Shown: in pieces, positions 15,401-53,100 of the stretch
How the letters are laid out: every line of letters begins with the position of its first letter
Position numbering within the stretch: position 1 is the stretch's first letter
Source: Eledone cirrhosa
Taxonomy: Eukaryota
DNA: 64,000 bases
Direction: 5' to 3'
Assembly (NCBI GenBank): GCA_964016885.1
Contig: OZ024741.1
Span: 306,714,001-306,778,000 of the forward strand
The notes under the pieces: model-generated
What the model saw: only the letters and a program-made list of their open reading frames with translations
What the model was told of the DNA's origin: nothing
Databases searched by the model: none
Translations under genes and position numbers: made by a program

Positions 15401-18400
15401 ATATATATTATCTTCCAGTTATTAGACAATAAATGCTGGCATGCAAACATCTGATGAACTAATTGTATTAAAGTCAAGTGACATTACATAATAGTGGATT
15501 ATGTCATATATTTATTATTGGCTTTCAGCTATTCAAGATGTGAAACACATTTCAAGCAAATAAGTTACTGTTAAATTATAATTTCATTTCATTAGGCTGA
15601 CCCGTTCCATCTTCACCTCCAAACATGACAGCATTGAAAACTGGGTGGACCCCACAATAACGCTAGATGTCATTCACAATCCTTATGACCACTATTGCTT
15701 CCCTCCTTCAGCAAGCAACAGGTAGCCTCATCCATGCAAGCATAGAAAATATAATTGAATGGTGATAATTATGTAATAATATATATGAAACTAGATTGCT
15801 CCAGTTTAGTTGGACATGAACAAAATATGATTTTGATACAATGGTAATGAAGTGAAATCTTCTTGTATACACATAAGTGTTTCTACTTTTGGCACAAGGC
15901 CAGCAATTATCCCAGTGCATTACTGGTACTTTATTTTATTAACTCCGTAAGGATGAAAGGCAAAGTTAACCTAGGCGGGATTTGAACTCAGAATGGCAAG
16001 GGCCGTAACTCTACGCATCAAAGCATGGTGTCCAACCCTCTACCGATACTGCCAATTCACTATGAAGTTTAATTAATAATTGTTTCTACTATTGGCACAT
16101 GGCCAGCATATTACCCAGTACATTACTGGTACTTTATTTTATCGACCCTGTAAGAATGAAAGACAAAGTTAATCTCGGCGGGATTTGAATTCAAAATGGC
16201 AAGGGCCGTAACTCTATGCGTCAAAGCATGGCGTCCGACACTCTACCGAAGTTTAATTGATAATGTTCAGTAAATTATTTGAACATTTTGTTTTAGTTTA
16301 ACTTTGTTCTTTTGATTGAGAGCATATCTGTTCATTACACTTATCCATGCTGATATATAATGATTCATAATGTTCAGTAGATTCTGTTGGAAAACAATGT
16401 GTTAGTCTTACCTCGATCTTCTGATGGACGGCAATTATCTCCATTACACCTATCTGATCTCTCAGCTTTGGTTCCTGAAAAATAATTGTTACATCATCAT
16501 CTTTATGTCAACTTTTCCATGCTGGACATTTTTTGATACAATGCTTTACAGTTAGATGCCTTTCATGATGCCAACCCTTTAGTCACCTCTTACAAGGTGT
16601 GTCAGCTGCGATCTCTGTTTATTAGGGAATATGTATATTGTGTGTATGTATGTATGTATCTATAAGATTTACAACTCTCAGAGACAATAAAATGTCAGAA
16701 GAATGAATGCAAATTTGTAATCATACCACCTCTATTCCAAGGATAAGCAGAGTGGTTATATGTCATTGTAAATTATTTGTTTCAATAAAAATACCTTCAC
16801 TACAAATATATAAGATTTCTCAGAAAACAATGAAATAGCACAAACATCACACATGCCTTAAATACTTGTTTCTACTTTAGGCACAAGGCCAGCAATTACC
16901 CAGTGCATTACTGAAATACTGAACCTTATTCAGTTTGCTAAAAAAAAATAAAATGCTGCCAAATCTTCAAAAACCCCATCCAGCAATCTTATGTATGGTG
17001 TCTTTTAACAAAATTTAATAAAAATATTATGTCCTTTTTTATATTAATATATTCACTGTCTTTAAACAATTTTTGTTTCATTCAATATCTTATTAATATT
17101 AGGGAGGTAGGGATTGACCATGAAATGCAGATATTAATTCCACGATTTTTGGAAAATGAGGATATTAATTCCAGTAAATTATTTGAAAATTTTGTTTTAG
17201 TTTAACATTGTTCTTTTGATTGAGAGCATATCTGTTCATTACACTTATCCATGCTGATATATAATGATTTATAATGTTCAGTAGATTCTGTTGGAAAACA
17301 ATGTGTTAGTCTTACCTCGATCTTCTGATGGACGGCAATTATCTCCATTACACCTATCTGATCTCTCAGCTTTGGTTCCTGAAAAATAATTGTTACATCA
17401 TCATCTTTAGGTCAACTTTTCCATGCTGGACATTTTGTGATACAATGCTTTACAGTTAGATGCCTTTCATGATGCCAACCCTTTAGTCACCTCTTACATG
17501 ATGCTAAGATACAGTTTATCTATTAAAAAAAAATGAGATACTGAATTTGAAGATGATCTTTATCCCTCACATAAAAATATGCAGTCTTTTAAATGTACCA
17601 CAAGGAGAGAATATCACATAGACCATTGTCTCCTAGACTGAGAGAAAGTTTAAACACACAAACAAAACTGCTTTTCATAGTTCCGAATCTTTAACAGTGT
17701 CGTATCTTAGTGCCCTAACTGTCAAGTCTATCTATTTTAAGCCAAATATAATACCTCATTACTCTATATTCATTTTTAATCTGTAATATTTGCTCAAGTT
17801 CAAAAGTGTGCCTGGGCTAACAAATTCCTACTCAAACTATATTTGAATAAAATAATTCACAATGACTTTAATTCCTAATTTTTCAAAGAAAATTAAATTT
17901 GTTTCAATTTCATAAATGTTACATGAACAAATATTTCCTCTGTACTGTCTGACTAGAAATTTCAGCCAGTTTATTATAATAAGCTGCTACTATTTTCCAA
18001 AGAAAATATAGCTTTTCTTTCAACATTATAAGTGTTATATGAACAAAATTTATCCTTCATACACTCAAGCCCGAACATTTCATCCAGGTAAAATTAACAA
18101 GCTGTATGATGCAAAAGAGGTGCAAGTGAATATGTTTAAAGTTTGGTTGTGTCAGCTGCAATCTCTCTTTATTAGGGAATATGTATATTGTGTGTATGTA
18201 TGTATGTATCTATAAGATTTACAACTCTCAGAGCCAATAAAATGTCAGAACAATCAATGCAAATTTGTAATCATATCACCTCTATTCGAAGGATAAGCAG
18301 AGTGGTTATATGTCATTGTAAAATATTTGCATCAATAAAAATACCTTCACTACAAATATATAAGATTTCTCAGAAAACAATGACACATGCCTTAAATACT

Positions 18401-20317
18401 GTTCCTTACTCAGTTTGCTAAAAAAAAATAAAATGCTGCCAAATCTCCTTCAAAAACCCCATCCAGCAATCTTATGTATGGTGTCTTTTAACAGATTTCA
18501 ATTAAAATGTTATGTCCTTTTTTATATATATACACTGTCTTGAAACAATTTTTGTTTCATTCAATGTCTTATTAATATTAGGGAGGTGGGGATTGACCAT
18601 GAAATACAGATATTAATTCCGCGAATTTTGGAATATGGAGATATTAATTTATTGAGATAAAAGAACATTACAAATGCCTAAACAACATTATAAATTTCTC
18701 ACAATTCATTCAGGAGAAAATTACAAATATGATGTCGTTAATAAAGACAAATATAAATGCATAAAAGAGAGAGAAAAAAAAAAGAGTATGAAAAAATGGG
18801 GGAGGGGGGATCAAAAACAAAATTTGGAAAGTTGCACAAGGGTTCTGAGACAAAACAGGCTTGGGAAATGCTGCATTAGATAATGTATTCCTACATATGC
18901 CTAAAATTATGAGATTTTCATGGCTGAAGAAGCAATTTATTCACATTGAGGAATTTTTATATTTTCAACTATATAATATGAAGAAGTTTGAAAGTGTTTG
19001 CCCTATACATTCTCTATGTAACATATGGACATATGGACATTTTGCAGCATAAATCATTGGGAAATGAGTTCAGGTATATGTGTCTGGCCAATATCTTTAA
19101 CCCTTTAGTTACCAATCTGGCCAAAATTGGCTCTGGTTCTATGAAATAAAACCACCCATTTTAAAGGTTCAGCTATTCCAGATGTGAAACACATTTTAAG
19201 CAAATAGGTTACTGTTAAATTATAATTTCATTTCATTAGGCTGACCCCTCCATCTTCCCCTCCAAACATGACAGCATTGAAAACTGGGTGCACCCGACAA
19301 TAACGCTAGATGTCATTCACAATCTTTATGACCACTATTGCTTCCCTCCTTCAGCAAGCAACATGTAGCCTACCCTTGCTCTCATACCTCACTCCACTTT
19401 GTATCACTGTTCTTTCCAGTGAGACCAAAGACACCAGTGCCCTAGAGTTGATGTCTGGTATTGCTGGTACCACAATAAATTGCACTTAGCCCACAGTGCA
19501 GGTGATAAAATGCAGAAAGTCCACAATATCAGGTAATAGTGGTGGTACCATAATAAACCACATCCAGTACATTCCTTGAAATAGTTAGCAGTAAGAAGGG
19601 TGTTTAGCCATAGAAACTATGCCTAAATAGAACATATGAATAAGAAACAGTTATCTGACCTGTCGAGATTCAAAACATTTCAACCCATCTCATCCATGCA
19701 AGCATCACCATCATCAGCATCATCGTGTAACGTCCATCTTCAATGCTAGCATGGGTTAGACAGTTTTGTTCCATTTGATGTGGGAATGGTCGGGAGACCA
19801 TGTCTCGCTCACACGAAAGCATCCCTGGCAGGTGTTTTTTACAGCTGGATACCCTTCCTAACACCAACCACATTTACAGTGTGGACTGGGAGCCTTTTCA
19901 CTGTGTCTCGTACACGACCACCTTACAGTGTGGAGTGTTGTGTCATTGACACAGTGGACGAAACAGGAGAGGGACGGTGGGGTAGGGAGTGGCAGTGGGG
20001 TGTACATTGAGTTAAGAGGTGCGTACTGACTGTAGGTTAGTATGCAATGGTAGTCGGGTTTTCTGTACAGCTGTATAGCGCCAAAGGTCTCGATCCAGTG
20101 TCATTGTCTTAGAGATTTGTAGGTGGGCAAGGTCAATCTTTATCACCTTGTCCCAGGTTTTTCTTGCTCTACCCAGTCAACATCTTCCATCACTATACAT
20201 TGCCCTGTACTTATTTATACAGCTGTCGTTCTTCATATGCATCACATGTCCATATCAAGGCAATCTCCTCTCCAGAACACAACATTTGATACCTCTTATG
20301 CTTAGTCTCCCTCTTAG

Positions 20318-20353
<36 letters not shown>

Positions 20354-23300
20354 TGTACACATGTATATATATAGAGATATACATATATACATATATGTGT
20401 GTGTACATAATCATCATCACCTTTTTATCTTTTTTTTACATCTGTTTTCCCTGCTAGTATGGGTTGGAAACATCATCATTGTTCATGACTAACTGATTTG
20501 GGGAACCATATTTTGCTTTCTATGACTACATTCCTCTTCCTATTACTGACAGTGTACTGTTCACATATGTAAAATACTTTTTACAGAAGTACAAATTTAT
20601 GAAAACGTTATAAAATATTCAGTACGATAGAATATTGTCACAAAATAAATAAATGCCAACACAATACTACTGTAAGCCATTTAAGTTTATATAGCGGGTT
20701 TCCCAAAAAATATATACACACCTCAACGGCAGATAACTCAAATGTGTATACACCCATATATATATATATATATTGTGTGTATGTGTGTATATATATATCT
20801 ATATATATATGTATATATATTGTATGGTCACCTGGATAGTAAACAAAGTCATACATAATGGGGTTGTTCCGAAGGACTGGCATAGCAGCATCATCATTAA
20901 CTGCTACAAGGGTAAAGGAGATGCCCTAGATAGGAGTAACTATAGAGGCATTAAATTAATCGACCAGGTCATGAAGGTCACAGAAAAAGTAATAGCGCAA
21001 CTAATCAGAGAGAGAATTGATCTAGATGAAATGCAGTTCGGGTTTGTGTCAGGCAAAAGTACCACAGACGCTCTTTTCATTGTACGACAACTACAGGAGG
21101 AGTACCTAGCTAAAAGTAAACCCCTATACTTAGCTTTTGTCGACTTGGAGAAAGCCTTCGACAGAGTCCCCCGTTTCATTATCTGGTGGGCTCTTAGAAA
21201 ACTAGGTGTTGATGAATGGCTTGTGAGAGCTATAAAAGCCATGTATAAAGAAACAGTCAGCAAGGTTAAAATTAACAACGAATATAGTGAAGAGTTTAGC
21301 GTAAAAGTTGGTGTTTATCAGGGCTCCGTTCTTAGCCCCCTACTATTTATTATTGCCCTTCAGGCTATAATGGTGGAGTTCAAGGCTGGCTGCCTGTGGG
21401 AACTCCTATACGCAGATGATCTAACGCTCATAGCTGAATCAATGGCCAAACTAGAGAAGAAATTCCAAACATGGAAGCATGGCCTTGAATCAAAAGGCCT
21501 TAAAATTAACCTGTATAAGACTAAAGTTCTTGTTTGTAGGAAGGAAAATAGGGCGCCAGTCCCATCCGGGAAATGGCCATGCTCAGTGTGTAGGAAAGGA
21601 GTAGGTAGAAACTCCATTTTATGTCCCAAATGCAAAGTATGGGTGCATAAAAGATGTAGTGGGATCACAGGTAAGCTAACTAAGAACATAGATTTTATAT
21701 GTGGCCGGTGCTCTGGTGCAATAAGTAGCGGCAAGTGCCCACAGAATACTAGCTCATTCCATTCCACAGATGGTTCTATAGAAATAGTGGACACCTTCCG
21801 TTAACTGGTGACAAAATCAGCAGTGGGGGAGGGTGCTCTGAAAGTACAGTAGCTAGAGTCAGAACGGGATGGAAAAAGTTCAGAGAGCTTATACCACTAT
21901 TAGCCGCTAAAGGGTTCTCCCTAAAAATGAAAGGCAGGCTGTATGATGCCTGCATACGAACATCAATGTTGCATGGCAGTGAGACCTGGGCATTGTGTGC
22001 AGAGGATATACGCAGACTGGAGAGGAACGAAGCTTGCATGCTCCGCTGGATGTGTAATAGTAATATACGTGAACGGCAAAGCATAAACGAACTAAGGGAA
22101 TAATTAGAAATAAGAGGGATCAGATGTTGTTTACTCGAGAGAAGGCTACGTTGGTATGGTCACGTGATGCACATGAAAGACGACAGCTGTATAAAAAAGT
22201 GCAGGGCAATAAAAATAGATGGTAGCCACAGAGTAGGCAGACCCAGAAAAACCTGGGCCGACTTGATAAACTCCGACCTCACACACTTACACCTCTCCAA
22301 GACAATGTCACTGGACCGAGAGCTTTGGTGCTACACAGTAATAGAGAAGACACGCCTTACCTAAGTACAAAGTGAAACCTACTACAGACAGTAGGCACCT
22401 CTAACAAAATACATCCCTGTCCTACTACCCCCACCCCATCCACACCACCCCTTTCAATGTAAAGTTATGTTGGTACCACAAGATCGAGCCCGAAACAAAT
22501 GAGGTCGTATAGGTGTCACGACAAAAATAACACACACTCCACGCTGTAATGTGGCCGTGTAGGTAACATGGTAAAAACCTCCCAGTTCCACACTGTAAAT
22601 GTGGTTGGTGTTAGGAAGGGCATCCAGCCGTAGAAAACCCGCCAGACAGTCCTATGCGAGCAAGCAACCACTCTTGCCTCAAGAGGGAAACTCCCTTCCA
22701 AACCCATGCAAGCGTGGAATATGGACATTAAACGATGATGATGATGATGATGTTGATATATATATATATATATAAATATATATATATATTGTGCGTGTGT
22801 GTATAAATATATATATATATATATATTGTATATATATATATATTAACTTTAAATTTGATAAGTTTTAGCCAGTATTGGCCCAGGCCATGCCCAACTTAAT
22901 ACCAGCACCCGGCGAAGTTTTCAAATCAGGATTTGGGCACCATGGCCCACTCAACTAGAGAGCTATTGTTTACGGAAGCATATCTGGGTGTAGGAGTATT
23001 ATCCGGGATTTCTCGAAGGAATTTGTCCAAAGACTCCTTGAATGTGATGGGGGTCTGTTTCTGTTTTAATGTGTTTTGGTGTAATGTTAAAGAGAGTAGG
23101 GCCAATTAAGGTGAAATAATTGTGCCATATTGTCGTTATGAGATGCGAGTGAAATTTTTGTTGTGGGCAGATCGCACAGGACCCAAGCTTTGGGTGTACC
23201 TTAGAGGTGATAATTATGTAATAATATATATGAAATTAGATTGCTCCAATATGATTTTGATACAATGGTCATGAAGTGAAATCTTCTTGCATACATATAA

Positions 23301-26300
23301 TGGTTTATGAAGTTATAATTTATAATGTTCAGTAAATTATTTGAAAATTTTGTTTTAGTTTAACTTTGTTCTTTTGATTGAGAGCATATCTGTTCATTAC
23401 ACTTATCCATGCTGATATATAAGGATTTATAATGTTCAGTACATTCTGTTGGAAAACAATGTTTTAGTCTTACCTCGATCTTCTGATGGACGGCAATTAT
23501 CTCCATTACACCTATCCGAATTCTCAGCTTTGGTTCCTGAAAAATAATTATTACATCATCATCTTTAGGTCAACTTTTCCATGCTGGACTTGTTTTGATA
23601 CAATGCTTTACAGTTGGATGCCTTTCATGGTGCCAACCCTTTAGTCACCTCTTACATGATGCTAAGATACAGTTTATCTATTAAAAAAAAAATGAGATAC
23701 TGAATTTAAAAATGATCTTTATCCATCACATAAAAATGTGCAATCTTTTAAATGTACCACAAGGAGAGAATATCACATAGACCATTGTCTCCAAGACTGA
23801 GAGAAAGTTTAAACACACAAACAAAACTGCTTTTCATAGTTCCGAATCTTTAACAGTGTCAAATCTTAGTGCCCTAACTGTCAAGTCTATCTATTTTAAG
23901 CCAAATATAATACCTCATTACACTATATTCATTTTTAATCTGTAATATTTGCTCAAGTTCAAAAGTGTGCCTGGGCTAACAAATTCCTACTCAAACTATA
24001 TTTGAATAAAATAATTCACAATGACTTTAATTCCTAATTTTCCAAAGAAAATTAAATTTGTTTCAATTTCATAAATGTTACATGAACAAAAATTTCCTCT
24101 CTACTGTCTGACTAGAAATTTCAGCCAGTTAAATATAATAAACTGCTACTATTTTCCAAAGAAAATATAGCTTTTCTTTCAACATTATAAGTGTTATATG
24201 AACAAAATTTATTCCTTCAAACACTCAAGCCCGAACATTTCATCCAGGTAAAATTAACAAGCTGTATGATGCAAAAGAGGTGCAAGTGAATATGTTTAAA
24301 GTTTGGTTGTGTCAGCTGCAATCTCTCTTTATTAGCGAATATGTATATTGTGTGCATGTATGTATGTATCTATAAGATTTACAACACTCAGAGTCAATAA
24401 AATGTCAGAACAATCAATGCAAATTTGTAATCATATCACCTCTATTCCAAGGATAAGCCGAGTGGTTATATGTCATTGTAAAATATTTGCATCAATAAAA
24501 ATACCTTCACTACAAATATATAAGATTTCTCAGAAAACAATGAAATAACACAAACATCACACATGCCTGAAATACTGTTCCTTACTCAGTTTGCTAAAAA
24601 AAAATAAAATGTTGCCAAATCTCATTTAAAAACCCTATCCAGCAATCTTATGTATGGTGTGTTTTAACAAAATTCAATAAAAATGTTATGTCTTTTTTTA
24701 TATTAATATATTCACTGTCTTTAAACAATTTTTGTTTCATTCAATGTCTTATTAATATTAGGGAGGTGGGGATTGACCATGAAATACAGGTATTAATTTC
24801 GCGAATTTTGGAAAAAGGGGATATTAATTTATTGAGTTAAAAGAACATTACAAATGCCTAAACAACGTTATAAATTGCTCACAATTCATTCAGGAGAAAA
24901 TTACAAATATGATGTCATTAATAAAGACAAATATAAATGCATAAAAGAGAGAGAAAAAAAAGATGATATAAAAAAGGGGGAGGGGGATCAAAAACAAAAT
25001 TTGGAAAGTTGCACAAGGGTTCTCAGACAAAACAGGCTTCGGAACAGCTGCATTAGATAATGAAGTCCTACATATGCCTAAACTGATGAGATTTTCATGG
25101 CTGAAGAAGCAATTTCTTCACATTGAGGAATTCTTATATTTTCAACTATATAATATGAAGAAGTTTGAAAGTGTCTGCCTATACATTCTCTATGTAACAT
25201 ATGGACATATGGACATTTTGCAGCATACATAGTTGGTAAATGAGCTCAGGTATATGTGTCTGGCCAATATCTTTAACCCTTTAGTTACCAATCTGGCCAA
25301 AATTGGCTCTGGTTCTATGAAATAAAACCACCCATTTTAAAGGTTCAGCTATTCAAGATGTGAAACACATTTTAAGCAAATAAGTTACTGTTAAATTATA
25401 ATTTCATTTCATTAGGCTGACCCCTTCCATCTTCCCCTCCAAACATGACAGCATTGAAAGCTGGGTGGATCCCACATAATGCTAGATGTCATTCTCAATC
25501 CTTATGACCACTATTGCTTCCCTCCCTCAGCAATCAACAAGTAGCCTACCCTTGCTCTCATACCCCACCCCACTTTATATCACTGTTCTTTCCAGTGAGA
25601 CCAAAGACACAAGTGCCCTAGAGTTGATGTCTGGTATTGCTGGTACCACAATAAATTGCACTTAGCCCACAGTGCAGGTGATAAAATGCAGAAAGTCCAC
25701 AATATCAGGTAATAGTGGTGGTACCATAATAAACCACATCCAGTACATTCCTTGAAATAGTTAGCAGTAAGAAGGGTGTTTAGCCATAGAAACTATGCCT
25801 AAATAGAACATATGAATAAGAAACAGTTATCTGACCTGTCGAGCTTCAAAACATTTCAACCCATCTCATCCATGCAAGCATCACCATCATCATCATCATC
25901 ATCGTGTAACGTCCATCTTCCACGTTAGCATGGGTTAGACAGTTTTGTTCCATTTGATGTTGGAATGGTCGGGAGACCATGTCTCGCTCACACGGAAGCA
26001 ACCCTGGCAGGTTTTTTTACAGCTGGATACCCTACCTAACACCAACCACATTTACAGTGTGGACTGGGAGCCTTTTCACTGTGTCTCGTACACGACCACC
26101 TTACAGTGTGGACTGTTGTGCCATCGACACAGTGGACGGAACGGCAGAGGGATGGTGGGGTAGGGTGTGGCAGTGAGGTGTACATTGAGTTAAGAGGTGC
26201 GTACTGACTGTAGGTTAGTATGCAATGGTAGTCGGGTTTTCTGTACAGCTGTATAGCGCCAAAGGTCTCGATCCAGTGTCATTGTCTTAGAGATTTGTAG

Positions 26301-26495: not shown

Positions 26496-26529
<34 letters not shown>

Positions 26530-26925: not shown

Positions 26926-26964
<39 letters not shown>

Positions 26965-26977
26965 TATATATATATAT

Positions 26978-39000: not shown

Positions 39001-41970
39001 TGGAACTGGATGCATGTTGAAAACGACTAGTAAGCGAGTTCACTCAGTGAGGAAACTTTAGACGACTTTAAAGCTTTTGTGAGGGCAGCAGATTAAAACG
39101 TGTTCTCTATTGAAAACATTCTACTGAACTTACGTTGTGAGAACAGCGAACTGACCCTGCCTCTTGGCTGAGAGACCTCGCTGAACTGAAGTTTTCAGTT
39201 TAAAGTTATGCTGTCATCGACCAACATTTACTTGTTCGTGATTGGTCAATTTCTAAGTTCAATTAGTGTATTATCAGTAGTAGTCAAATTCTCGGAATTC
39301 AGAAAACTATGTCTTTCCAAGAATTGATGTGAAATTGAAAGTATTCAATTTCCACGAATCTCAGAACAGTGTTTTTCTGCTAATTCATGTGAGAAACTGA
39401 AAGTAGTGTTTTCCACGAATTGGAGTGGAGAACCTGTGTACACTACAATAGTACTCGTTCATTTATACATTGCTCCTTTGGCATTTTCTTTGCACCTTTG
39501 GCATTTTCTTTGCACCTTATTCAGAAAACCCAAAATATTAATGGTAATGTAAATATTTATTTTTTTAAGGAACCCGGAGTTTGTTTTACGGAACCCCAAG
39601 GTTCCGCGGAACCCATGTTGGCGACCACTGACATAGACCATTGTCTCCTAGACTGAGAGAAAGTTTAAACACACAAACAAAACTGCTTTTCATAGTTCCG
39701 AATCTTTAACAGTGTCGTATCTTAGTGCCCTAACTGTCAAGTCTATCTATTTTAAGCCAAATATAATACATCATTACACTATATTCATTTTTAATCTGTA
39801 ATATTTGCTCAAGTTCAAAAGTGTGCCTGGGCTAACAAATTCCTACTCAAAATATATTTGAATAAAATAATCCACAATGACTTTAATTCCTAATTTTCAA
39901 AAGAAGATTAACTTTGTTTCAATTTCTTAAATGTTACATGAACAAAAATTTCCTCTGTACTGTCTGACTAGAAATTTCAGCCAGTTAAATATAATAAGCT
40001 GCTACTATTTGCCAAAGAAAATATAGCTTTTAATTCAACATTATAAGTGTTATATGAACAAAATGTATTCCCTCAAACACTCAAGCCAGAAAATTCAATC
40101 CAGGTAAAACTAACAAGCTGTATGATGCAAAAGAGCTGCAAGTGAATATGTTTACAGTTTGGTTGTGTCAGCTGCAATCTCTCTTTATTAGGGAATATGT
40201 ATAATGCATGTATGTATGTATCTATAAGATTTACAACTTTGAGAGCCAATAAAATGTCACAACAATCAATGCAAATTTGTAATCATATCACCTCTATTCC
40301 AAAGATAAGCAGAGTGGTTATATGTCATTGTAAAATATTTGCATCAATAAAAATACCTTCACTACAAATATATAAGATTTCTCAGAAAACAATGAAATAG
40401 CACAAACATCACACATGCCTTAAATACTGTACCTTACTCAGTTTGCTAAAAAAAAAAAATGCTGCCAAATCTCATTCAAAAACCCTATCCAGCAATCTTA
40501 TGTATGGTGTCTTTTAACAAAATTCAAGAAAAATGTTATGTCTTTTTTTATATTAATATATTCACTGTCTTGAAACAATTTCTGTTTCATTCAATGTCTT
40601 ATTAATATTAGGGAGGTGGGGATTGACCATGAAATGCAGATATTAATTCCGCGAATTTTGGTAAATGGGGACATTAATTTATTGAGTTAAAAGAACATTA
40701 CAAATGCCTAAACAACATTATAAATTTCTCACAATTCATTCAGGAGAAAATTACAAATATGATGTCGTTAATAAACACAATTAATAAACACAAATATAAA
40801 TGCATAAGAGAGAGAGAAAAAAAGATGATGTAAAAAAAAAGATGATGTAAAAAAGGGGGAGGGCAGATCAAAAACAAAATTTGGAAATTTGTTGACCCCT
40901 TCCATCTTCCTCTCCAAACATGACAGCATTGAAAACTGGATGGATCCCACAATAACGCTAGATGTCATTCACAATCCTTATGACCACTAATGCTTCCCTC
41001 CTTCAGCAAGCAACAAGTAGCCTATCCTTGCTCTCATACCCCACTCCACTTTGTATCACTGTCTTTCCAGTGAGACGAAAGACACCAGTGCCCGAGAGTT
41101 GATGTCTGGTATTGCTGGTGCCACAATAAATTGCACTTAGCCCACAGTGCAGGTGATAAAATGCACAAAGTCCACAATATCAGGTAATAGTGGTGGTACC
41201 ATAATAAACCACATCCAGTACATTCCTTGAAATAGTTAGCAGTAAGAAGGGTGTTTAGCCATAGAAACTATGCCTAAATAGAATATATGAATAAGAAACA
41301 GTTATCTGACCTGTCGACCTTCAAAACATTTCAACCCATCTCATCCATGCAAGCATCACCATCATCATCATCATTATCGTGTAACGTCCATCTTCCACGC
41401 TAGCATGGGTTAGACAGTTTTGTTCCATTTGATGTTGGAATGGTCGGGAGACCATGTCTCGCTCACATGGAAGCAACCCTAGCAGGTTTTTTTGCAGCTG
41501 GATACCCTTCCTAACACCAACCACATTTACAGTGTGAACTGGGAGCCTTTTCACTGTGTCTCCTACATGGCCACCTTACAGTGTGGAGTGTTGTGTCATC
41601 GACACAGTGGATGGAACAGGAGAGGGACGGTGTGGTAGGGTGTGGCGGTGGGGTGTACATTGAGTTAAGAAGTGCGTACTGACTGTAGGTTTGTATGCAA
41701 TGGTAGTCGGGTCTTCTGTACAACTGCATAGCGCCAAAGGTCTCGATCCAGTGTCATTGTCATAGAGATTTGTAGGTGGGCAAGGTCAATTTTTATCACC
41801 TCGTCCCAGGTTTTTCTTGCTCTACCTACTCAACAGCTTCCATCACTTTACATTGCCCTGTACTTTTTTATACAGCTGTCGTTCTTCATATGCATCACAT
41901 GTCCATATCAAGGCAATCTCCTCTCCAGAACACAACATTTGATACCTCTTATGCTTAGTCTCCCTCTTAG

Positions 41971-42004
<34 letters not shown>

Positions 42005-42406: not shown

Positions 42407-42439
<33 letters not shown>

Positions 42440-45400
42440 TATATATTGTGTGTGTATGTATATATATATATATACACAGAAGTATCTTCGGTTAGTTGTG
42501 GGGTCTAGTTTGCAAGAAGAACTGAATGTAATCCATATGTTGAAAATATTGTAGGTTAAAATAAATCCCGGAAAACAATAAAAGATCAAAAGGAAAACAG
42601 AGTCATGATATAAGTTAAAACAATGAAATAAAAATTCAAGTCATTAGAAATATACTTCACTGCTTTACGATCGTTTGTAGGTGATAATAATACACCCTAC
42701 GCATATTTCGTTATCGATCTATGTAGGGTTAGTTACAAAATATCAAATAAGGAATATATTTAACTACATGTATATCATCACCCATTGTCAAAAGCAATGA
42801 AAATTTATTCACAATCAATAGTAAATTGAGTTCTATGACCTTATTTGGAGGTAGCTGAAGAACAAACCAAAAAATTGTTTTTTGCCATATGGTGTTACGA
42901 TGAAATATAACTCACTTTAGTTGAGGTCATGGCCTTTTGAAAGGAATGGTTGAATGGTGTTAAAAATAGAATTACTATGAAGAACCTATGAAGAAAAGGG
43001 ATTGTTATATTGATAGTGGAATGTAGATGGTGGAGTGAAGTTTAAAAGGAATGTAAAAATTAAATGTTGAGTTGTGTTGTATGGAATTTTTAGGTGAATA
43101 TAAATAAGTAAATATAAAATATACAGAGATACCTGAGATAAATATAGATAGGTAAAGTAATGGTCATAACTAGGAAGGATAGTAGATTAAAAGATGAAAA
43201 TTATAATAAGATAATAAAATATAATAATATAATAATATAATATAATGTAATATAATATAGTATCGTATGGTACATTGTATATAGTATAATATAGCGTATG
43301 ATGTATCATAAAATATAAAATAGTAAATATTTTCAAGTGGGTCAATGTATAAGTAATCAAACTCAGATAAATACATGTTGACATATAGTCAAAACGCATA
43401 ATTTTCTTAGATCACAAAAGTACAAATATTCACTTATATATAGATAGAGGTAAAATTACATTGATACTCCATTAAAAACATACATACGCATACATAGATA
43501 TATACATATACATACACATACATACACGCACACAAGCATATATATATCATCATTCATCATTTTCATTTCATTTTACGTCCGCTTTTTCCCTGCTTGCAAG
43601 GGTGGGTCGGGAACTGATTCTGGCTTGATTTCTACAGCTGGATGCCTTTTCTAACACCAACCTCATTTACAGTGAGCGCTGGGTGCTTTTTTGCGTGGCA
43701 CCTGCACGACCACTTTGCAGTCCCTATCATCTCATTTCTACAGCTGAGTAAACTGGAGCAATGTGAAATAAAGTGTCTTGCTCAAGGAAACAACACAATC
43801 ACCCGGTCTGAGAATTGAACTCACAACCTTTTGATTGCAAGGCCAATGCTCTAACCACTAAGCCATGTGCCTCCATTTATGTGTATATATATATACACAC
43901 ACTTATACATACATATATACATGTACACACACATAGATGTGCATACACATATACACACACATACACATATACACACATATATATATACACACACACTATA
44001 TATATATATATATATATATTCTCTTATCATACATTCATAGATACATGTATACCCATGCAATTTCAGGTGTTTATGTACCTTGATGCCCTTAGTCAGTAAC
44101 GCATGAATCTATGGAAGCTAATAAATTAAAGAATAAACAGGAAGGCATATAATTAGGGGAAAGGGATAATAACAAATGGTACGTCACAGAACTATAGTGA
44201 GTTACTATTTAGAGTGTTTAATTAGGTTTATAGTTCTTAAACTCAGCTTCATTCATACAATTCGACATCGATTCTTACTATTCTTCGATTTCTCCAATTC
44301 TCTTAAACAAAGCACTGATCTTCACCAGTAATAGATCGGATTTATCTACTGAGGAAATCAACATCATAACTCGCGCTAGAAAAACCTTACTAAACTTCCA
44401 AAAAGAACACTGGACAAGAAACACATAACAACTTATTCGATATAACGATGGGATCCATGGACTCTGCTCAAGTTACGGACCTCATTGGACTATTTCTCCT
44501 CTATAATATTCATTCCTCTTTTCCCCACCTCAAAGGTGGTCTTTATCGGGATGATTGTCTATTGATATCTAACAATCTTAGCAATTCTAATATAGAGAAA
44601 AAACAAAAAACAAATTAGAAAATTCCTCAACTACTATTACAACCGTAACATTACCTTTGAAAACACCTCAAAAGTAGCTAACTTCCTTGACGTTACCTTA
44701 GACCTCTCTACGAATATTTATCAACCTTACAACAAACCCAACCAGAACCTACACTATGTACATTCACGCTCTAACCACCCTGGCTCTATACTAAAAAACT
44801 TAGTATATAACATATCTCTTAGACTTTATAAATTATCTTCCAATGAAGATATATTTTATAAAAATGCACCCTTCTACAACGAGGCCCTAACTAGAAGTGG
44901 ATATAAAGAAAACATTTCATATATCCCCAACACTACTATGGACCATACTACAAAACCTAGCAAAAACTACAAACACCAAAAAATACCATCGAAACAAATA
45001 CCTAATGAGGTTATTCCTATCACACCAAACAACCGAAAAACCACAACAACTATTACTACACGATCTATGACCAATGTTAACAACTCACATATGAATACCA
45101 AACATTCAACCTCTCATAATCTACCCAATAATAACACCAAATACAACCACTGCAATTTACCAGATTCCACAAATACAAATACTAACCATAAGATTTCTTC
45201 TAGAACACAGCACATTAATATAAGTGGGAATAAGAACTTAACTAAAAACCGCAAAAGAAACATAACATGGTACAACGCACCCTTCAACCTGCAAAGTATT
45301 GGACAAATCCCCCAAAAATTCTTCGAAATTCTACATAAACATTTTCCACTAAACCACAGATACCACCAAATATTTAACAGATATACTGTTAAATTCTCAT

Positions 45401-48400
45401 ATTCTACATCAAACAATCTCCAGCAAAAAATAAGCAACTACAACATTTATAAATATAAAAATAATATGACCACACCACCAGAACATAATTTAAATAAGAC
45501 TGCACCATTTAAAAGGACAAATAATACAATCCTTCAACCTGGAAAACACAACCACCCAAATCACCAACACAAAAACAACATAACACAAAATCACAATACA
45601 ACCCCAGCACTAAATCACCCACAAAGCAGCACTCATTTTCTCTCTAACATTAATTACAATAAGAATAGCTCAAGGATTAATGAGAATTATGTAGGTACCC
45701 CCAACAACCATCTTACATATGGTTGTAATTGCAGAAATAGAAGCCCTTGCCCCTTAAATAGCAACTGTTTGATTAATAATGTAATATATAAATGCACTGT
45801 GTCTACTACTGACTCCAACAAATCATATATAGGATCTACATCGAACACATTTAAGAAAAGATATTACGCACACTCCAGTAGCTTTAACAATACTAAACTA
45901 GTTAACACCACATCTTTAGCTGAAGCAGTAAATAACTATAAAAAGAAAAAATATATTTCAAGCTATCGTGGGATACCATTCTGCAAAGAACTCCATATAT
46001 TGGAAACAGAAGAGAATGCAGATTATGTTCCGGGGAGATCTTGGAAATTACTAAATCTAAGGACGATTTATTGAATAAAAGACAGGAACTGATTATAGCT
46101 TGTAATCACCGTATACGAAAATAATCTAAGTACTATAAACCTAATTAAACACTCTAAATAGCAACTCAATATAGTTCTATGTGACGTACCATTTGTTAGT
46201 ATCCCTTTCCCCTAATTATATGCCTTCCTGTTTATTCTTTAATTTTTTAACCTTTTTATTTATTAGCTTCCATAGATTCATGCGTTACTGACTAAGGGCA
46301 TCAAAGTACATAACCATCTGTAATTGCATGGGTATACATGTATCTATGTATGTATGATAAGAGAATATATGTATATATAAATATATGTATGTATATATAT
46401 ATGTGTATGTGTGTGTATATGTGTATGCACATTTATGTGTGTACATGTATATATGTATGTATAAGTGTGTATATATATATGTTTGTGTGCGTGTATATAT
46501 GTGTATGTATATGTTTATATCTATGTATGCGTATGTATGTTTTTAATGGAGTATCAATGTAATTATATCTCTATTTATATATGTGAATATTTGTACTTTT
46601 GTGATCTAAGAAAATTATGCGTTTTGACTATATGTCAACATGCATTTATCTGAGTTTGATTACTTATACATTGACCCACTTGAAAATATTTACTATTTTA
46701 TATTTTATGATACATCATACGCTATATTATACTATATACAATGTACCATACGGTACTATATTATATTACATTATATTATATTATTATATTATTATATTTT
46801 ATTATCTTATTATAATTTTCATCTTTTAATATACTATCCTTCCCTTCCTAGTTATGACCATTACTTTACCTATCTATATTTATCCTAAAAATTACCTATC
46901 TATATTCATCTAAAAATTCCATACAACACAACTCAACATTTAATTTTTACATTCCTTTTAAACTTCACTCCACCATCTACATTCCACTATCAATATAACA
47001 ATCCCTTTTCTTCATAGGTTCTTCATAGTAATTCTATTTTTAACACCATTCAACCATTCCTTTCAAAAGGCCATGACCTCAACTAAAGTGAGTTATATTT
47101 CATCGTAACACCATATGGCAAAAAACAATTTGATTGGTTTGTTCTTCAGCTACCTCCAAATAAGGTCATAGAACTCAATTTACTATTGATTTTGAATAAA
47201 TTTTCATTGCTTTTGACAACGGATGATGATATACATGTAGGTAAATATATTCCTTATTTGATATTTTGTAACTAACCCTACATAGATCGATAATGAAATA
47301 TGCGTACGATGTATTATTATTACCTAGAAGCGATCGTAAAGCAGTGAAGTATATTTCTAATTACTTGAATTTTTATTTCATTGTTTTAACTTTATATATA
47401 TATTGTATATCTATATATATACAATGATATTAAATAAATGAAAACTATATTTATAAAACCAGATTTATTTTATTATATATATTTCAAGGGTACCAAGACA
47501 ACATTGTATTTTATCTGATGAAAGCGTACCAATGTTGTCTTGGTACCCTTGAAATATATAATAATAAAATAAATATGGTTTTATAAATATCGTTTCCATT
47601 TATTTAATATCATTGAATATTTACTCCAGTTAACTGTTGAGTGCTCTAAATCAGTTATAAACATTTATATTTGTCGGACTTCCAACAAATTAAATACCCT
47701 TATATATCATCATCATCAGGTTTAGCGTCCGTGTTCCACGCTTGCATGGGTTTGGACGGGGGTTTTCCCACTTGAGGCAAGAGTGGTTGTCTTGCTCGCA
47801 TAGGACTGTCTGGCGGGTTTTCTACAGTTGGATGCCCTTCCTAACACCAACCACATTTACAGTGTGGGGCTGGGAGGTTTTTACCGTGTTGCCTACACGG
47901 CCACATTACAGCGTGGACTGTCTGGCGGGTTTTCTACAGCTGGATGCCCTTCCTAACACCAACCACATTTACAGTGTGGGGCTGGGAGGTTTTTACCGTG
48001 TTGCCTACACGGCCACATTTACAGCGTGGACTGTGTGTTTTTTTGTCGTGACACCTACATGATCTCATTTGTTTCGGCCTGGATGTTGTGGGACCAACAT
48101 AACTGTACATTGAAAGGGGCGGTGTGGATGGGGTGGAGGTGGTGGGACGGGGGGGTGTTTTGATAGAGATGCCTACTGACTGTAGTAGGTTTTTACTTTG
48201 TATTTAGGTAAGGCGGGTCTTCTCTATTACTGAGTACCGCCAAAGGTCTCGGTCCAGTGACATTGTCTTGGAGAGGTGTAAGCGTGTGAGGTCGGAATTT
48301 ATCAGCTCGTCCCATGTTTTTCTGGGTCTGCCTACTCCGTGGCTACCGTCTATCTTTATTGCCCTGCACTTTGTTATACAGCTGTCGTCTTTCATGCGCA

Positions 48401-50115
48401 TCACGTGACCGTACCAACGTAGCCTTCTCTCGAGTAAACAACATCTGATCCCTCTTATTTCTAATTTTTTCCTTAGTTCGTTTATGCTTTGCCGTTCACG
48501 TATATTACTATTGCACATCCAGCGGAGCATGCAAGCTTCGTTCCTCTCTAGTCTGCGTATATCCTCTGCACACAATGCCCAGGTCTCACTGCCATGCAGC
48601 ATTGCTGTTCGTATGCAGGCATCGTATAACCTGCCTTTCATTTTTAGGGAGAACCCTCTAGCGGCTAATAGTGGTATAAGCTCTCTGAACTTTTTCCATC
48701 CAGTTCTGACTCTAGCTACTGTACTTTCAGAGCACCCTCCCCCACTGTCACCCAGGTAACGGAAGCTGTCCACTATTTCTATAGAACCCTCTGCGCAGTT
48801 GAAGGAGCTAGTATTTTGTGGGCACTTGCTGCTACTTATTGCACCAGAGCACCGGCCACATGTAAAATCTATGTTCTTAGTTAGCTTACCTGTGATCCCA
48901 CTACATCTTTTATGCACCCATACTTTGCATTTGGGACATAAAATGGAGTTTCTACCTACGCTTTTCCTACACACTGAGCATGGCCATTTCCCGGATGGGA
49001 CTGCCGCCATATTTTCTTTCCTACAAACTAGAACTTTTGTCTTAGCCAGGTTAATTTTAAGGCCTTTTGATTCTAGGCCGTGCTTCCATGTTTGGAATTT
49101 CTTCTCTAGTTCGGTCATTGATTCAGCTATGAGCGTTAGATCATCTGCGTATAGGAGTTCCCATGGGCAGCCGGTCTTGAACTCCTCTGTTATAGCCTGA
49201 AGGGCAATAATAAATAGTAGGGGGCTAAGAACAGAGCCCTGATGGACACCAACTTTTACGCTAAACTCTTCACTATATTCGTTGTTAATTCTAACCTTGC
49301 TGACTGTTTCTTTATACATGGCTTGTATAGCTCTCACAAGCCATTCGTCAACACCTAGTTTTCTAAGAGACCACCAGATAATGGAACGGGGGACTCTGTC
49401 GAAGGCTTTCTCCAAGTCGACGAAAGCTAAGTATAGGGGTTTACTTTTAGCTAGGTACTTCTCCTGTAGTTGTTGTACAATGAAAAGAGCGTCTGTGGTA
49501 CTTTTGCCTGACACAAATCCGAACTGCATTTCATCTAGATCAATTCTCTCTCTGATTAGTTGCGCTATTACTTTTTCCGTGACCTTCATGACCTGGTCGA
49601 TTAATTTAATGCCTCTATAGTTACTCCTATCTAGGGCATCTCCTTTTCCCTTATAGCAGTTAACGATGATGCTGCTACGCCAGTCCTTCGGAACAACCCC
49701 ATTCTGTATGACTTGGTTAACTATCCGGGTGACCATGGTGTGTCCCACCGAACCAGATGCCTTCAGCATCTCAGCAACTATTTCCGAAGGACCAGCCGCC
49801 TTACCCGTCTTCATATCTTTGATTGCCTTGCTTATTGTACTACCCTGGACTAACACTGCTGGTCCCTCTATTGGGTCGATGTGGGGGAGACTGTCTTTCT
49901 CCCATTTGTTCTCCTCATTTAGAAGCCTTTCGTAGTGACACTTCCAAGCTACCTTCTTATCAGCGTCGGTGATGGCAAGTATGCCATCATCGTTAAGCAC
50001 ACACTTCTCCCCGACAATATCACGGTTTTCCTTGACACATATAAGTATATATATATATAACCCATGCAAGCGTGGAACATGGATGTTAAACGATGATGAT
50101 GATGATGATGATGAT

Positions 50116-50154
<39 letters not shown>

Positions 50155-53100
50155 TGTATATATATATATATTAACTTTGATAACTTTGATAGGTTTTGGC
50201 CAGTATTGGCCCAGGCCATGACTAACTTAATAGCACCACCCGGCGAAGTTTTCAAATCAGGATTTGAGCACCATGGCTCACTCAAGTAGCCCACATATCC
50301 GGATGTAGGGGTTTTATCAGGGATTTCTTGAAGGAATTTGTCCAAAGACTTCTTGAACGTGATGGGGTCTGTTTCTGTTTTAATGTGTTTTGGTGTAATG
50401 TTAGAGAGAGCAGGGCCAATTGAGGTGAAATAATTGTGCCACTTTGTTGTTATGAGATGCGAGTAAAATTTGGGGACCCAAGCTTTGGGTGTACCTTAGA
50501 GGTGATATTTATGTAATAATATATATGAAATTAGATTGCTCCAATTTAGTTAGACATGAAGAAAATTTGATTTTGATACAATGGTAATGAAATGAAATCT
50601 TCTTGCATAGATATAATGGTTTATGAAGTTTAATTGATAATGTTCAGTAAATTATTTGAAAATTTTGTTTTAGTTTAATATTGTTCTTTTGATTGAGAGA
50701 ATATCTGTTCATTACACTTATCCATGCTGATATATAATGATTCATAATGTTCAGTAGATTCTGTTGGAAAACAATGTTTTAATCTTACCTCGATCTTCTG
50801 ATGGACGGCAATTAAATCCATTACACCTATCCGATCTCTCACCTTTGGTTCCTGAAAAATAATTGTTACATCATCATCTTTATGTCAACTTTTCCATGCT
50901 GGACATTTTTTGATACAATGCTTTACAGTTAGATGCCTTTCATGATGCCAACCCTTTTGTCACCTCTTACATGATGCTAAGATACAGTTTATCTATAAAT
51001 AAAAAAAACGAGATACTGAATTTAAAGATGATCTTTATCACTCACATAAGAATATGCAGTCTTTTAAATGTACCACAAGGAGAGAATATCACATAGACCA
51101 TTGTCTCCAAGACTGAGAGAAAGTTTAAACACACAAACAAAATTGCTTTTCATAGTTCCGAATCTTTAACAGTGTCAAATCTTAGTGCCCTAACTGTCAA
51201 GTCTATCTATTTTAAGCCAAATATAATACCTCATTACACTATATTCATTTTTAATCTGTAATATTTGCTCAAGTTCAAAAGTGTGCCTGGGCTAACAAAT
51301 TCCTACTCAAAATATATTTGAATAAAATAATCCACAATGACTTTAATTCCTAATTTTCCAAAGAAGATTAACTTTGTTTCAATTTCATAAATGTTACATG
51401 AACAAAAATTTCCTCTGTACTGTCTGACTAAAAATTTCAGCCAGTTAAATATAATAAACTGCTACTATTTTCCAAAGTAAATATGGCTTTTCTTTCAACA
51501 TTATAAGTGTTATATGAACAAAATATATTCCCTCAAACACTCAAGCCAGAAAATTCAATCCAGGTAAAACTAACAAGCTGTATGATGCAAAAGAGGTGCA
51601 AGTGAATATGTTTAAAGTTTGGTTGTGTCAGCTGCAATCTCTCTTTATTAGGGAATATGTATATTGTGTGTATGTATGTATGTATCTATAAGATTTACAA
51701 CTCTCAGAGCCAATAAAATGTCAGAACAATCAATGCAAATTTGTAATCATACCACCTCTATTCCAAGGATAAGCAGAGTGGTTATATGTCATTGTAAAAT
51801 ATTTGCATCAATAAAAATACCTTCTCTACAAATATATAAGATTTCTCAGAAAACAATGAAATAGCACAAACATCACACATGCCTTAAATACTGAACCTTA
51901 CTCAGCTTGCTGAAAAAAATAAAATGCTGCCAAATCTCCTTCAAAAACCCCATCCAGCAATCTTATGTATGGTGTCTTTTAACAAAATTCAAGAAAAATG
52001 TTATGTCCTTTTTTATATTAATATATTCCCTGTCTTGAAACAATTTCTGTTTCATTCAATATCTTATTAATATTAGGGAGGTGAGGACTGACCATGAAAT
52101 GCAGATATTAATTCCGCGATTTTTGTACAATGGGGATATTAATTTATTGAGTTAAAAGAAAATTAAAAATGCCTAAACAACATTATAAATTGCTCACAAT
52201 TCATTCAGGAGAAAATTACAAATATGATGTCGTTAATAAACACAAATATAAAGGCATAAAAGAGAGAGAAAAAAAAAGATGATGTAAAAAATGTGGGGTG
52301 GGGATCAAAAACAAAATTTGGAAAGTTGCACAAGGGTTCTGAGACAAAACAGGCTTGGGAACTGCTGCGTTAGATAATTTAATCCTACATATGCCTAAAA
52401 TTATGAGATTTTCATGGCTGAAGAAGCAATTTCTTCACATTGAGAAATTTTTATATTTTCAACTATATAATATGAAGAAGTTTGAAAGTGTTTGCCTATA
52501 CATTCTCTATGCAACATATGGACATATGGACATTTTGCAGCATAAATCCTTGGTAAATGAGCTCAGGTACATGTGTCTGGCCAATATCTTTAACCCTTTA
52601 GTTACCAATCTGGTCAAAATTGGCTCTGGTTCTATGAAATAAAACCACCCATTTTAAAGGTTTACAATTTAAATTAAAATCTTCCAGCATAATTTTATAT
52701 AATCACCTTACATTAAGTTACTATCTTAGAATGAAATAATTACTTAATATAAAGCAAATCTCTCAAAATTCTTCATTAATTAATTTAAATAGACTATATT
52801 TAATTAAAAATGTGGTCATGAAAAGGTTAAAAAATTCAAATGAAGCAATGCCATTTTAGTGTTACACTTCATAAATTGTTTTTTTCTCTATTATGTCTGA
52901 AACTGTTAGACTAATTCAATCTTTGCTAACTAGTTGCAAACAAAAGATGCTTCTCAATCTTTTGGCAAAAATCAGTCATTCTTAAGATGAACAATGACTC
53001 AGTAACAGTTGTCTTCACAAGTTTGTATTTCCATAAACAATGGAGCTAAAGGTGAGTGAGGCACTACCCATCGGAGGAGATACAAACTATGGAGTGTGGA

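What the first reader, a model, noticed from the sequence alone, without database searches (positions are those of the whole stretch)
15524..52662. Hidden array of seven 63-nt disulfide-loop microexons amplified in kilobase tandem units
Seen: what looks like 37 kb of repeats carries a 63-nt phase 1-1 exon in each unit (16412, 17316, 23474, 27657, 33730, 36177, 50789). All have ttttcag acceptors and G|gtaag donors, and all encode GTK[A/G][E/Q][R/N/S/G]SDR-CNG[D/V/F]NC-[R/H]PSEDR. The units have suffered large deletions and multi-kb insertions, yet all seven exons keep their splice sites, frame and both Cys. Inference: a recently expanding 21-aa cassette repeat that can be included or skipped in any combination without frameshift, giving variable length or variable cassette content in a probably secreted protein. 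I do not recognise it as a described system.
Basis: partly seen in the sequence, partly recalled or inferred. Interest (0 to 1): 0.88.

Follow-up and report, generated by a model that had tools for sequence, protein, structure and literature searches.

The report
Cut-down exon repeats in octopod gene
Seven recently copied 63-base exons, each the cut-down tail of a small cysteine-rich module, sit inside a giant octopod gene built from about 80 such modules, and they likely add a variable number of short spacers to a probably secreted protein, although their splicing has not been seen.

Summary
In detail: seven 63-nt phase 1-1 exons lie on the minus strand, one per 4.2-kb tandem unit, and short-read DNA supports the copies. 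Their joint survival of deletions, small indels and substitutions has a neutral probability of about 0.005-0.007 (post hoc; no single test is significant). The host is a gene of at least 365 kb with 78 six-cysteine VWC/pacifastin-like module exons, the orthologue of Octopus 'kielin/chordin-like' models. It amplifies exons habitually: another exon is present 45 times. The 63-nt exon is the last third of such a module (Cys5-x4-Cys6 plus linker). Those two cysteines do not pair in the pacifastin fold, so the 'disulfide loop' is unproven, and 63 nt exceeds usual microexon limits. Free skipping is a property of the whole gene: 21 O. bimaculoides models toggle four whole modules in combinations, though none has the short cassette. 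Most likely the seven are optional in-frame spacers in a modular extracellular protein. No RNA was available. This is a new variant of ordinary class 1-1 exon duplication, in a striking and poorly annotated gene.

The parts
15524..52662 (.). Tandem array of 7 units of a 4183-nt intronic repeat, each with one 63-nt exon; 7 inferred large deletions and several insertions
50789..50851 (-). 63-nt cassette exon copy 1 ([20 protein letters not shown])
36177..36239 (-). 63-nt cassette exon copy 2 ([20 protein letters not shown])
33730..33792 (-). 63-nt cassette exon copy 3 ([20 protein letters not shown])
27657..27719 (-). 63-nt cassette exon copy 4 ([20 protein letters not shown])
23474..23536 (-). 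63-nt cassette exon copy 5 ([20 protein letters not shown])
17316..17378 (-). 63-nt cassette exon copy 6 ([20 protein letters not shown])
16412..16474 (-). 63-nt cassette exon copy 7, identical to copy 6, in a unit reduced to about 350 nt around the exon plus 570 nt
16303..16349 (-). Relic of a further short exon (one in each of the 7 units, about 110 nt 3' of the cassette; this is the copy-7 example): no acceptor of its own, weak donor (5 of 9 consensus); donor and one Cys lost in copy 1
55496..55558 (-). Older paralogous 63-nt Cys-x4-Cys exon ([20 protein letters not shown]), intact splice sites
56160..56222 (-). Older paralogous 63-nt Cys-x4-Cys exon ([20 protein letters not shown]), AAG acceptor
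58145..58207 (-). Degenerate 63-nt paralogue: frame open, pyrimidine tract of the acceptor lost
59477..59641 (-). Six-Cys VWC/pacifastin-like module exon, phase 1-1
58674..58836 (-). Six-Cys module exon, phase 1-1 (Pfam Pacifastin_I E 1.3e-6)
58378..58504 (-). Dead module exon: 5' part with first Cys and acceptor missing
56392..56559 (-). Six-Cys module exon, phase 1-1
55714..55881 (-). Six-Cys module exon just upstream of the short exons (Pfam TILa E 1.7e-6, VWC E 4.2e-6)
3327..3494 (-). Six-Cys module exon, first module downstream of the array
20824..22652 (+). LINE-type retrotransposon insertion (RVT_1 E 1e-30)
29171..32473 (-). 3.3-kb insertion with retrotransposon-like broken ORFs
36497..39630 (.). 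3.1-kb insertion about 260 nt upstream of copy 2
42432..50117 (.). 7.7-kb insertion with a 940-nt inverted repeat pair and a LINE (RVT_1 E 1.4e-32)

Best explanation
The seven 63-nt exons are recent tandem copies of the last third of a six-cysteine VWC/pacifastin-like module exon, and they are likely spliced as optional in-frame spacers into a giant, probably secreted, multi-module protein. Shown: the host gene has 78 module exons over 365 kb on the same strand; the short exon aligns to the module tail (Cys5-x4-Cys6, Pro, linker, donor); three older short-exon lineages lie just upstream; one of them was then copied sevenfold inside a 4.2-kb unit. Inferred: the copying was by unequal crossing-over with gene conversion; mRNAs carry a variable number (up to 7) of these 21-residue pieces between two folded modules, as is annotated for whole modules of the Octopus orthologue; the effect is to tune the length and spacing of an extracellular matrix or secretion polymer. 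The two orphaned Cys most likely close on each other (about 55%) or cross-link chains (about 35%); neither pairing is inherited from the parent fold.
For: Host gene: 80 profile hits, i.e. 79 modules of which 78 are on the minus strand, from +116.7 kb to -247.5 kb in window coordinates, in 464 kb scanned; colinear best matches to O. vulgaris CAI9730160.1 and O. bimaculoides models. Origin: Cys33, Cys38 and Pro40 of a module align with the cassettes, and a DNA profile of the short exons hits module 3' ends with their donors (E 3.2e-5; E 1.3e-5). Function of the class: three short-exon lineages differing at 37-44% of bases keep length, both splice sites, both Cys and frame (neutral P at most 0.02 for 3 of 5 lineages at 0.2 or more substitutions per site per branch, 0.08 at 0.15). 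The seven copies: combined neutral P 0.005-0.007; the exon bin is the only 200-nt bin of the unit kept in 7 of 7 units; donors score 7 of 9, like the module exons (6-8 of 9, 24 of 24). Skipping in this gene: 21 O. bimaculoides models give 21 different module strings, with four modules toggled. Extracellular role: VWC-only 'kielin/chordin-like' proteins are the most abundant class in the argonaut eggcase matrix (bioRxiv 10.1101/2021.07.10.451900, section 13), and an Argonauta hians protein has the same module type.
Against: No transcript or protein containing the cassette was seen. None of the 27 octopod models checked has a Cys-x4-Cys-only piece. Each single test of selection on the seven copies is not significant (0.19-0.29, 0.39, 0.063). 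The exon is not more conserved than its flank: 9 of 63 sites vary against 21 of 254, and 8 of the 9 changes alter an amino acid. The gene tolerates dead exons: 5 of 78 modules are visibly broken, plus the 58145 exon and the in-unit relic. Selection against frameshifts shows inclusion, not skipping. The O. bimaculoides isoforms are annotation records whose read support I could not inspect, and their near-complete set of combinations may be enumerated by software. No signal peptide was found. That the argonaut eggcase proteins come from this gene's orthologue was not tested.
Confidence: 0.45

Rival explanations
1. All seven exons are spliced in constitutively, giving a fixed 147-residue Cys-rich insert; length varies only between alleles or individuals through unequal crossing-over.
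For: Uniformly strong splice sites in 7 of 7. Retention of frame and of every exon despite 7 large deletions is what constitutive use predicts. Introns of 841-14549 nt allow inclusion of all copies.
Against: Whole modules of the orthologue are annotated as skipped. Short exons in multi-kb introns are often skipped (general knowledge). The gene carries dead exons that must be skipped.
Confidence: 0.22
2. The array is a passenger: an intronic 4.2-kb stretch was amplified and carried one once-functional exon along; at most one copy is used and the rest are young pseudo-exons that have not yet decayed.
For: Copies are young (flank diversity 0.032). Amino-acid changes are not suppressed: 8 of 9, P 0.30 against neutral. 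No single intactness test is significant. Dead exons are common in this gene.
Against: Combined neutral P 0.005-0.007. The neighbouring relic lost its donor and a Cys in 1 of 7 copies while the cassette lost none. Exon diversity is twice that of the flank (0.065 against 0.032), which neutrality does not predict.
Confidence: 0.18
3. The cassettes are a diversifying set of protease bait or decoy loops: the host is a many-headed pacifastin-type inhibitor and each cassette keeps only the reactive-loop segment, varied and mixed by splicing.
For: The pacifastin reactive site lies between the last two Cys (PMC2689174, passages), which is the part the cassette keeps. The predicted module fold ranks pacifastin inhibitors first. 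Seven of the 8 amino-acid-changing sites fall at P7-P9 and P1' by that numbering (clustering P 0.02; shared variants 6 of 63 against 8 of 254, P 0.039). In 27 copies of the large module array, P9 and P4 are the most variable codons, with 6 residues each, while all 6 Cys are invariant.
Against: The loop needs the core and the Cys2-Cys6 and Cys3-Cys5 bridges, which the cassette lacks. P1 is an invariant Gly. The fold also matches VWC, VWF E and fibronectin type I modules, with no hit at E 0.001 or better. Cys1-Cys2 spacing is 18, not 9-12. The position mapping is post hoc.
Confidence: 0.12
4. The array is an assembly expansion of one or two real copies.
For: Two copies are identical over 63 nt and 98.5% alike over 327 nt. 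Only one DNA sample, possibly the assembly's own, was available.
Against: Units differ by 2-10% and carry private insertions and deletions. In short-read contigs the exon region has depth 25.3, 27.7 and 46.2 against roughly 9-11, 8-10 and 14-16 for long contigs of unique sequence, matching the 2.0-3.5-fold 31-mer multiplicity expected from 7 copies. 8 of 8 listed variants near the exon are alleles of other assembled copies.
Confidence: 0.03

Closest known systems
Octopus 'kielin/chordin-like' / 'VWFC domain-containing' gene models (O. vulgaris CAI9730160.1; O. bimaculoides XP_052827937-9.1, XP_014784907.1 and UniRef A0A0L8H-series isoforms); VWC-only proteins of the argonaut eggcase
   Same: Same six-Cys modules in colinear order; whole modules annotated as skipped in combinations.
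   Different: No Cys-x4-Cys-only cassette in any of 27 octopod models checked. An exon that is single in the O. vulgaris model is present 45 times here.
Class 1-1 exon modules and tandem exon duplication in extracellular multidomain proteins
   Same: Phase-symmetric exons duplicated in tandem without frameshift; phase symmetry is a known signature of module exchange (PMC3632108, abstract in search listing).
   Different: The amplified exon is a fragment of a module with two orphaned Cys, not a whole fold.
Pacifastin precursors, including Trichoplax tapp-1 (42 domains, 88 exons) and insect genes with alternatively spliced domains (PMC2689174, passages; PMC13388995, passages)
   Same: Many six-Cys domains from exon duplication; splice variants that drop a domain; similar predicted fold.
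   Different: Cys1-Cys2 spacing 18; each module is one exon rather than two half-domain exons; the cassette has only Cys5 and Cys6; inhibitor activity unknown.
Schistosoma micro-exon genes (MEGs) and SmVAL6 (PMC8293314, passages; PMC4015677, passages)
   Same: Symmetric short exons, probably in a secreted protein, with amino-acid-rich variation.
   Different: MEG exons are 36 bp or shorter and make up most of the coding sequence, with skipping shown by transcripts; here they are 63 nt, 10 short exons against 78 module exons, and skipping is unshown.

Membership tests
Microexon | Length at most 30 nt or at most 51 nt (abstracts in search listing) | tested here: not met
   63 nt
Schistosome-type micro-exon gene | Symmetric exons | tested here: met
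   phase 1-1, 63 nt
Schistosome-type micro-exon gene | Exons of 36 bp or less forming most of the coding sequence | tested here: not met
   10 short exons of 63 nt against 78 module exons
Schistosome-type micro-exon gene | Skipping variants shown in transcripts | not testable with these tools
   no RNA run was listed
Class 1-1 module with tandem exon duplication | Symmetric phase-1 boundaries and adjacent homologous exon copies with homologous intron flanks | tested here: met
   24 of 24 module exons scored have a phase-1 donor of 6 of 9 or better (the scan looked at phase 1 only)
Pacifastin-like domain (cassette) | Six Cys forming Cys1-4, Cys2-6, Cys3-5 bridges | tested here: not met
   only the Cys5 and Cys6 positions are present
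Pacifastin-like domain (host modules) | Cys1-x9-12-Cys2-N-x-Cys3-x-Cys4-x2-3-G-x3-6-Cys5-T-x3-Cys6 | tested here: not met
   six Cys and Gly invariant in 24 of 24, but Cys1-Cys2 spacing is 18; 1 of 3 single exons passes the Pfam cut-off
Pacifastin-like domain (host modules) | Pacifastin fold | tested here: inconclusive
   model pLDDT 87.6; top 6 Foldseek hits are pacifastins (probability 0.91-1.00) but E is 0.09-0.3, and VWC, VWF and FnI domains also match
Pacifastin-like domain (host modules) | Serine protease inhibition | not testable with these tools
   needs an assay
True kielin / KCP (BMP regulator) | Full ten-Cys VWC repeats followed by a VWD region (architecture recalled, from no call) | tested here: not met
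   modules have six Cys; no VWD in the O. vulgaris orthologue
Mutually exclusive exon array (Dscam type) | Exclusion by splice-site proximity | tested here: not met
   introns between copies are 841-14549 nt
Mutually exclusive exon array (Dscam type) | Docking and selector RNA pairing | not tested
   no search for competing RNA structures was run

The most novel reading that the evidence does not exclude
An octopod has cut a pacifastin/VWC module down to its reactive-loop segment, made it a free exon and is amplifying and diversifying it as a splice-mixed set of bait loops, inside one 80-module gene that works as a combinatorial library of protease-binding heads in a secretion such as egg coat, mucus or glue.
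Probability: 0.12. Interest if true: 0.8.

Novelty: new variant of a known kind. Interest (0 to 1): 0.46.

Why it matters
If the exons are used, this is a dated, step-by-step record of how a new protein repeat is born: a domain exon is truncated, the stub survives as an exon, diverges into several lineages and is then multiplied in intronic tandem units. It also exposes a very large octopod gene that public annotation splits into fragments and labels 'kielin/chordin-like', with lineage-specific exon arrays and annotated cassette skipping. Proteins with that label dominate the argonaut eggcase matrix, so the gene is a candidate for a tunable cephalopod structural or protective secretion. One RT-PCR or one long-read cDNA set would settle the splicing.

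Tried and rejected
Expression: the one run search listed 3 holders, none on record as RNA; this is 'no RNA holder listed', not evidence. The three runs are contigs of one sample covering introns and exons alike, so they act as DNA; only window 50250-59900 was laid. Protein searches for the cassette: a single module exon against longer proteins gave 4 candidates and no hit; an alignment of four cassettes with one module tail gave 1 candidate and no hit at E 10; proteins under 78 aa were not searched; both are weak negatives. Pfam found no family for 2 of 2 cassettes. Idea that the 63-nt exon is the second half of a split domain awaiting a first-half exon: rejected, because the flanking module exons are complete with six Cys and no half-module exon was found in the array. 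Signal peptide: no convincing candidate in 170 kb upstream or in the first 7 kb of unplaced contig C1469. The relic's donor was first read as lost in all copies; one search corrected this: GT is kept but weak in 6 of 7. The indel rate was inflated by alignment edges and was replaced. A second fold search (ticket) had not finished after three collections and was not used. Literature: searches for octopus+VWC+pacifastin, cephalopod+tandem exon duplication and cephalopod+VWC+cysteine-rich+egg returned 0 papers; kielin+octopus, kielin+cephalopod and VWC/mollusc/byssus/kielin returned 4, 6 and 8 papers, of which by title and abstract only the argonaut preprint bears on this gene class. Two papers asked for by id were not held. 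The argonaut preprint's supplements (bioRxiv, closed) may hold the sequences needed to test whether its proteins come from this gene. Earlier-finding look-ups near this place, by sequence and in relatives were empty.
Full report
Observation. The seven exons are real and lie on the minus strand at 16412-16474, 17316-17378, 23474-23536, 27657-27719, 33730-33792, 36177-36239 and 50789-50851. All seven have TTTTTCAG acceptors and GAG|GTAAGA donors, are 63 nt and phase 1-1, and encode the stated peptide. Mapping the region on one intact 4183-nt unit gives seven units from 15524 to 52662, with seven inferred large deletions (406, 651, 685, 869, 922, 1944 and 2683 nt; the 869-nt one is shared by two units and counted once) and four multi-kb insertions, two of them with reverse transcriptase domains. 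A genome-wide DNA search found these seven as the only full-length matches among 17 scored candidates. The genome is 3.0 Gb. The protein matches below make it an octopod, but exon identities of about 40-75% to O. vulgaris and O. bimaculoides show it is neither.

Assembly. Short-read contigs of one DNA sample, in three runs, were laid on 50250-59900. The contig over the exon has depth 25.3, 27.7 and 46.2, against roughly 9-11, 8-10 and 14-16 for long contigs of unique sequence. Seven copies with the assembled differences predict a mean 31-mer multiplicity of 2.0-3.5. All 8 listed variants between 50700 and 50842 are alleles of other assembled copies. The sample may be the assembly's own, so this checks the assembly and says nothing about variation between animals.

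Is intactness beyond chance? The exon is not more conserved than its flank. Nine of 63 sites vary against 21 of 254 (P 0.11), diversity is 0.065 against 0.032, and 8 of 9 changes alter an amino acid (P 0.30 against neutral). Under neutrality the chance that substitutions spare both splice sites, both Cys and the frame is 0.19-0.29. The chance of no frameshifting small indel is 0.39, from 45 events in the units, and that all seven large deletions miss the exon 0.063. The product is 0.005-0.007. This assumes independent classes and uniform breakpoints, and the locus was picked for looking intact, so I read it as moderate evidence that several copies are used. The 200-nt bin holding the exon is the only one kept in 7 of 7 units.

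The host gene. Beside the array lie exons of about 165 nt that encode C-x18-C-x2-C-x-C-x3-G-x3-C-x4-C and match Pfam VWC, TILa and Pacifastin_I. Scanning 464 kb gave 80 profile hits: 79 modules, 78 of them on the minus strand, from +116.7 kb to -247.5 kb in window coordinates. Five of the 78 are visibly dead. Forty-five form a second, larger array at -31 to -162 kb. In 27 of its copies pN/pS is 0.99, yet all six Cys are invariant and no frame is broken (P about 4e-4 from flank variability). No module was found in a further 130 kb upstream or 40 kb downstream; five more lie on unplaced contig C1469 and match the 5' modules of O. bimaculoides. A profile search of 1.84 billion proteins ranked O. 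bimaculoides A0A0L8H6G5 and O. vulgaris CAI9730160.1 first, and the downstream exons match the latter in order, with the 45-copy array mapping to a single module. The database label is 'kielin/chordin-like', but the modules have six Cys and the O. vulgaris model has no VWD domain, so it is not true kielin (architecture recalled).

Origin of the cassette. The cassette aligns to the module tail with Cys33, Cys38 and Pro40 invariant, and a DNA profile of the short exons finds module 3' ends with their donors. Three older 63-nt paralogues lie at 55496, 56160 and 58145, the last with a damaged acceptor, and each unit holds a relic of a fifth. The three intact lineages differ at 37-44% of bases yet keep length, splice sites, both Cys and frame. 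The neutral chance of 3 of 5 surviving is 0.018 at 0.2 and 0.0013 at 0.3 substitutions per site per branch, but 0.077 at 0.15 (indels not counted). So short Cys-x4-Cys exons were probably functional before the sevenfold amplification. Variant sharing among the seven copies does not fit one tree, as expected from unequal crossing-over and conversion (inference).

The disulfide. The predicted module (pLDDT 87.6) matches pacifastin inhibitors best, then VWC, VWF E and fibronectin type I modules, none at E 0.001 or better. In pacifastins the bridges are Cys1-4, Cys2-6 and Cys3-5, and the reactive site lies between the last two Cys (PMC2689174, passages; PMC13388995, passages). The cassette's two Cys therefore do not pair in the parent fold and have lost their partners. 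A new loop between them is plausible but unshown; inter-chain cross-links are the alternative. By pacifastin numbering, 5 of the 8 amino-acid-changing sites fall at P7-P9, 2 at P1' and 1 at P4'. That is the basis of the bait-loop reading; it is post hoc, and P1 is an invariant Gly.

Splicing. No RNA run was listed, so use of these exons is untested. Their donors score 7 of 9 consensus matches, like the module exons (6-8 of 9 in 24 of 24), and the relic scores 5. Introns of 841-14549 nt do not force mutual exclusion. The best indirect evidence is the orthologue. Twenty-one O. bimaculoides models of the 5' part (19 UniRef, 2 RefSeq; of one 19-member cluster only 15 were listed) give 21 different module strings: modules 7 and 25 are each present or absent, and 17 and 18 appear singly or together. 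I could not see their read support, and 11 of 12 possible combinations for one start suggests enumeration by software, though the local skips likely rest on junctions. None of 27 octopod models checked contains a Cys-x4-Cys-only piece. So in-frame skipping appears to be a property of this gene rather than a speciality of the seven exons.

Function. VWC-only kielin/chordin-like proteins are the most abundant class in the argonaut eggcase matrix (bioRxiv 10.1101/2021.07.10.451900, passages and section 13), and Argonauta hians GAB1609735.1 has the same module type; identity of the eggcase proteins with this gene was not tested. I take the host to be an extracellular polymer of small disulfide-rich modules, and the cassettes to be optional spacers that change its length and cross-linking (0.45). 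Rivals: constitutive insert (0.22), young pseudo-exons (0.18), protease bait library (0.12), assembly artefact (0.03).

Comparison and verdict. It works like class 1-1 exon duplication with cassette skipping, known from pacifastin precursors and many extracellular proteins, and resembles schistosome micro-exon genes in logic but fails their size and proportion criteria. It is not a microexon by the limits of 30 or 51 nt (abstracts). I found no description of this gene's exon arrays in six literature searches. The new element is a module stub with orphaned cysteines amplified as its own exon. New variant of a known kind; interest 0.46.

Noticed in passing
G000:C2 about 306,552,000-306,682,400 (L024-L037), minus strand: A 45-copy array, spacing mostly about 2.3 kb, of one six-Cys module exon that is single in the O. 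vulgaris model; in 27 copies pN/pS is 0.99 with all Cys invariant, and the most variable codons lie near the would-be reactive loop. Larger and arguably more interesting than the 63-nt array.
   Followed up: partly
O. bimaculoides proteins P0001, P0176-P0194, P0198: 21 annotated models differ by whole modules in combinations and by two alternative starts; adjacent RefSeq models XP_052827937-9.1 look like fragments of one gene.
   Followed up: partly
L051:6994-9670 and L052:6-5220 (contig C1469, + strand): Five module exons matching the 5' modules of the O. bimaculoides gene sit on a 52-kb unplaced contig, so the gene's start may be unplaced or a paralogue exists.
   Followed up: partly
window 3282-3341, minus strand: A short internal repeat gives the 3494 exon two in-frame donors, AAG|GTGATA at 3327 and at 3282, 45 nt apart.
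   Followed up: no
window 16303-16383 and the same place in each unit: An AG 28 nt after each cassette donor is in frame with the relic and would define an 81-nt open exon with a weak donor; it could only be used if the cassette is skipped (read).
   Followed up: no
L011:4437-4571, L012 about 2622, L016:2609-2761, L033 about 256, window 58378-58504: Five dead module exons (stop codon, lost Cys or lost 5' end), which must be skipped if the gene is translated.
   Followed up: partly
L041 about 5077 (+) and L042 about 9452 (-): An inverted near-identical copy of one module exon inside the gene.
   Followed up: no
window 42608-43547 and 46471-47397, with ORF 44596-46074: A 94% inverted repeat pair of 940 nt around a 492-aa frame with no Pfam match, inside the largest insertion; probably a transposable element.
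   Followed up: partly
proteins P0015, P0017, P0018: Proteins with runs of very similar six-Cys modules rank high in the profile search; two of these three clusters carry Myxococcales labels.
   Followed up: no
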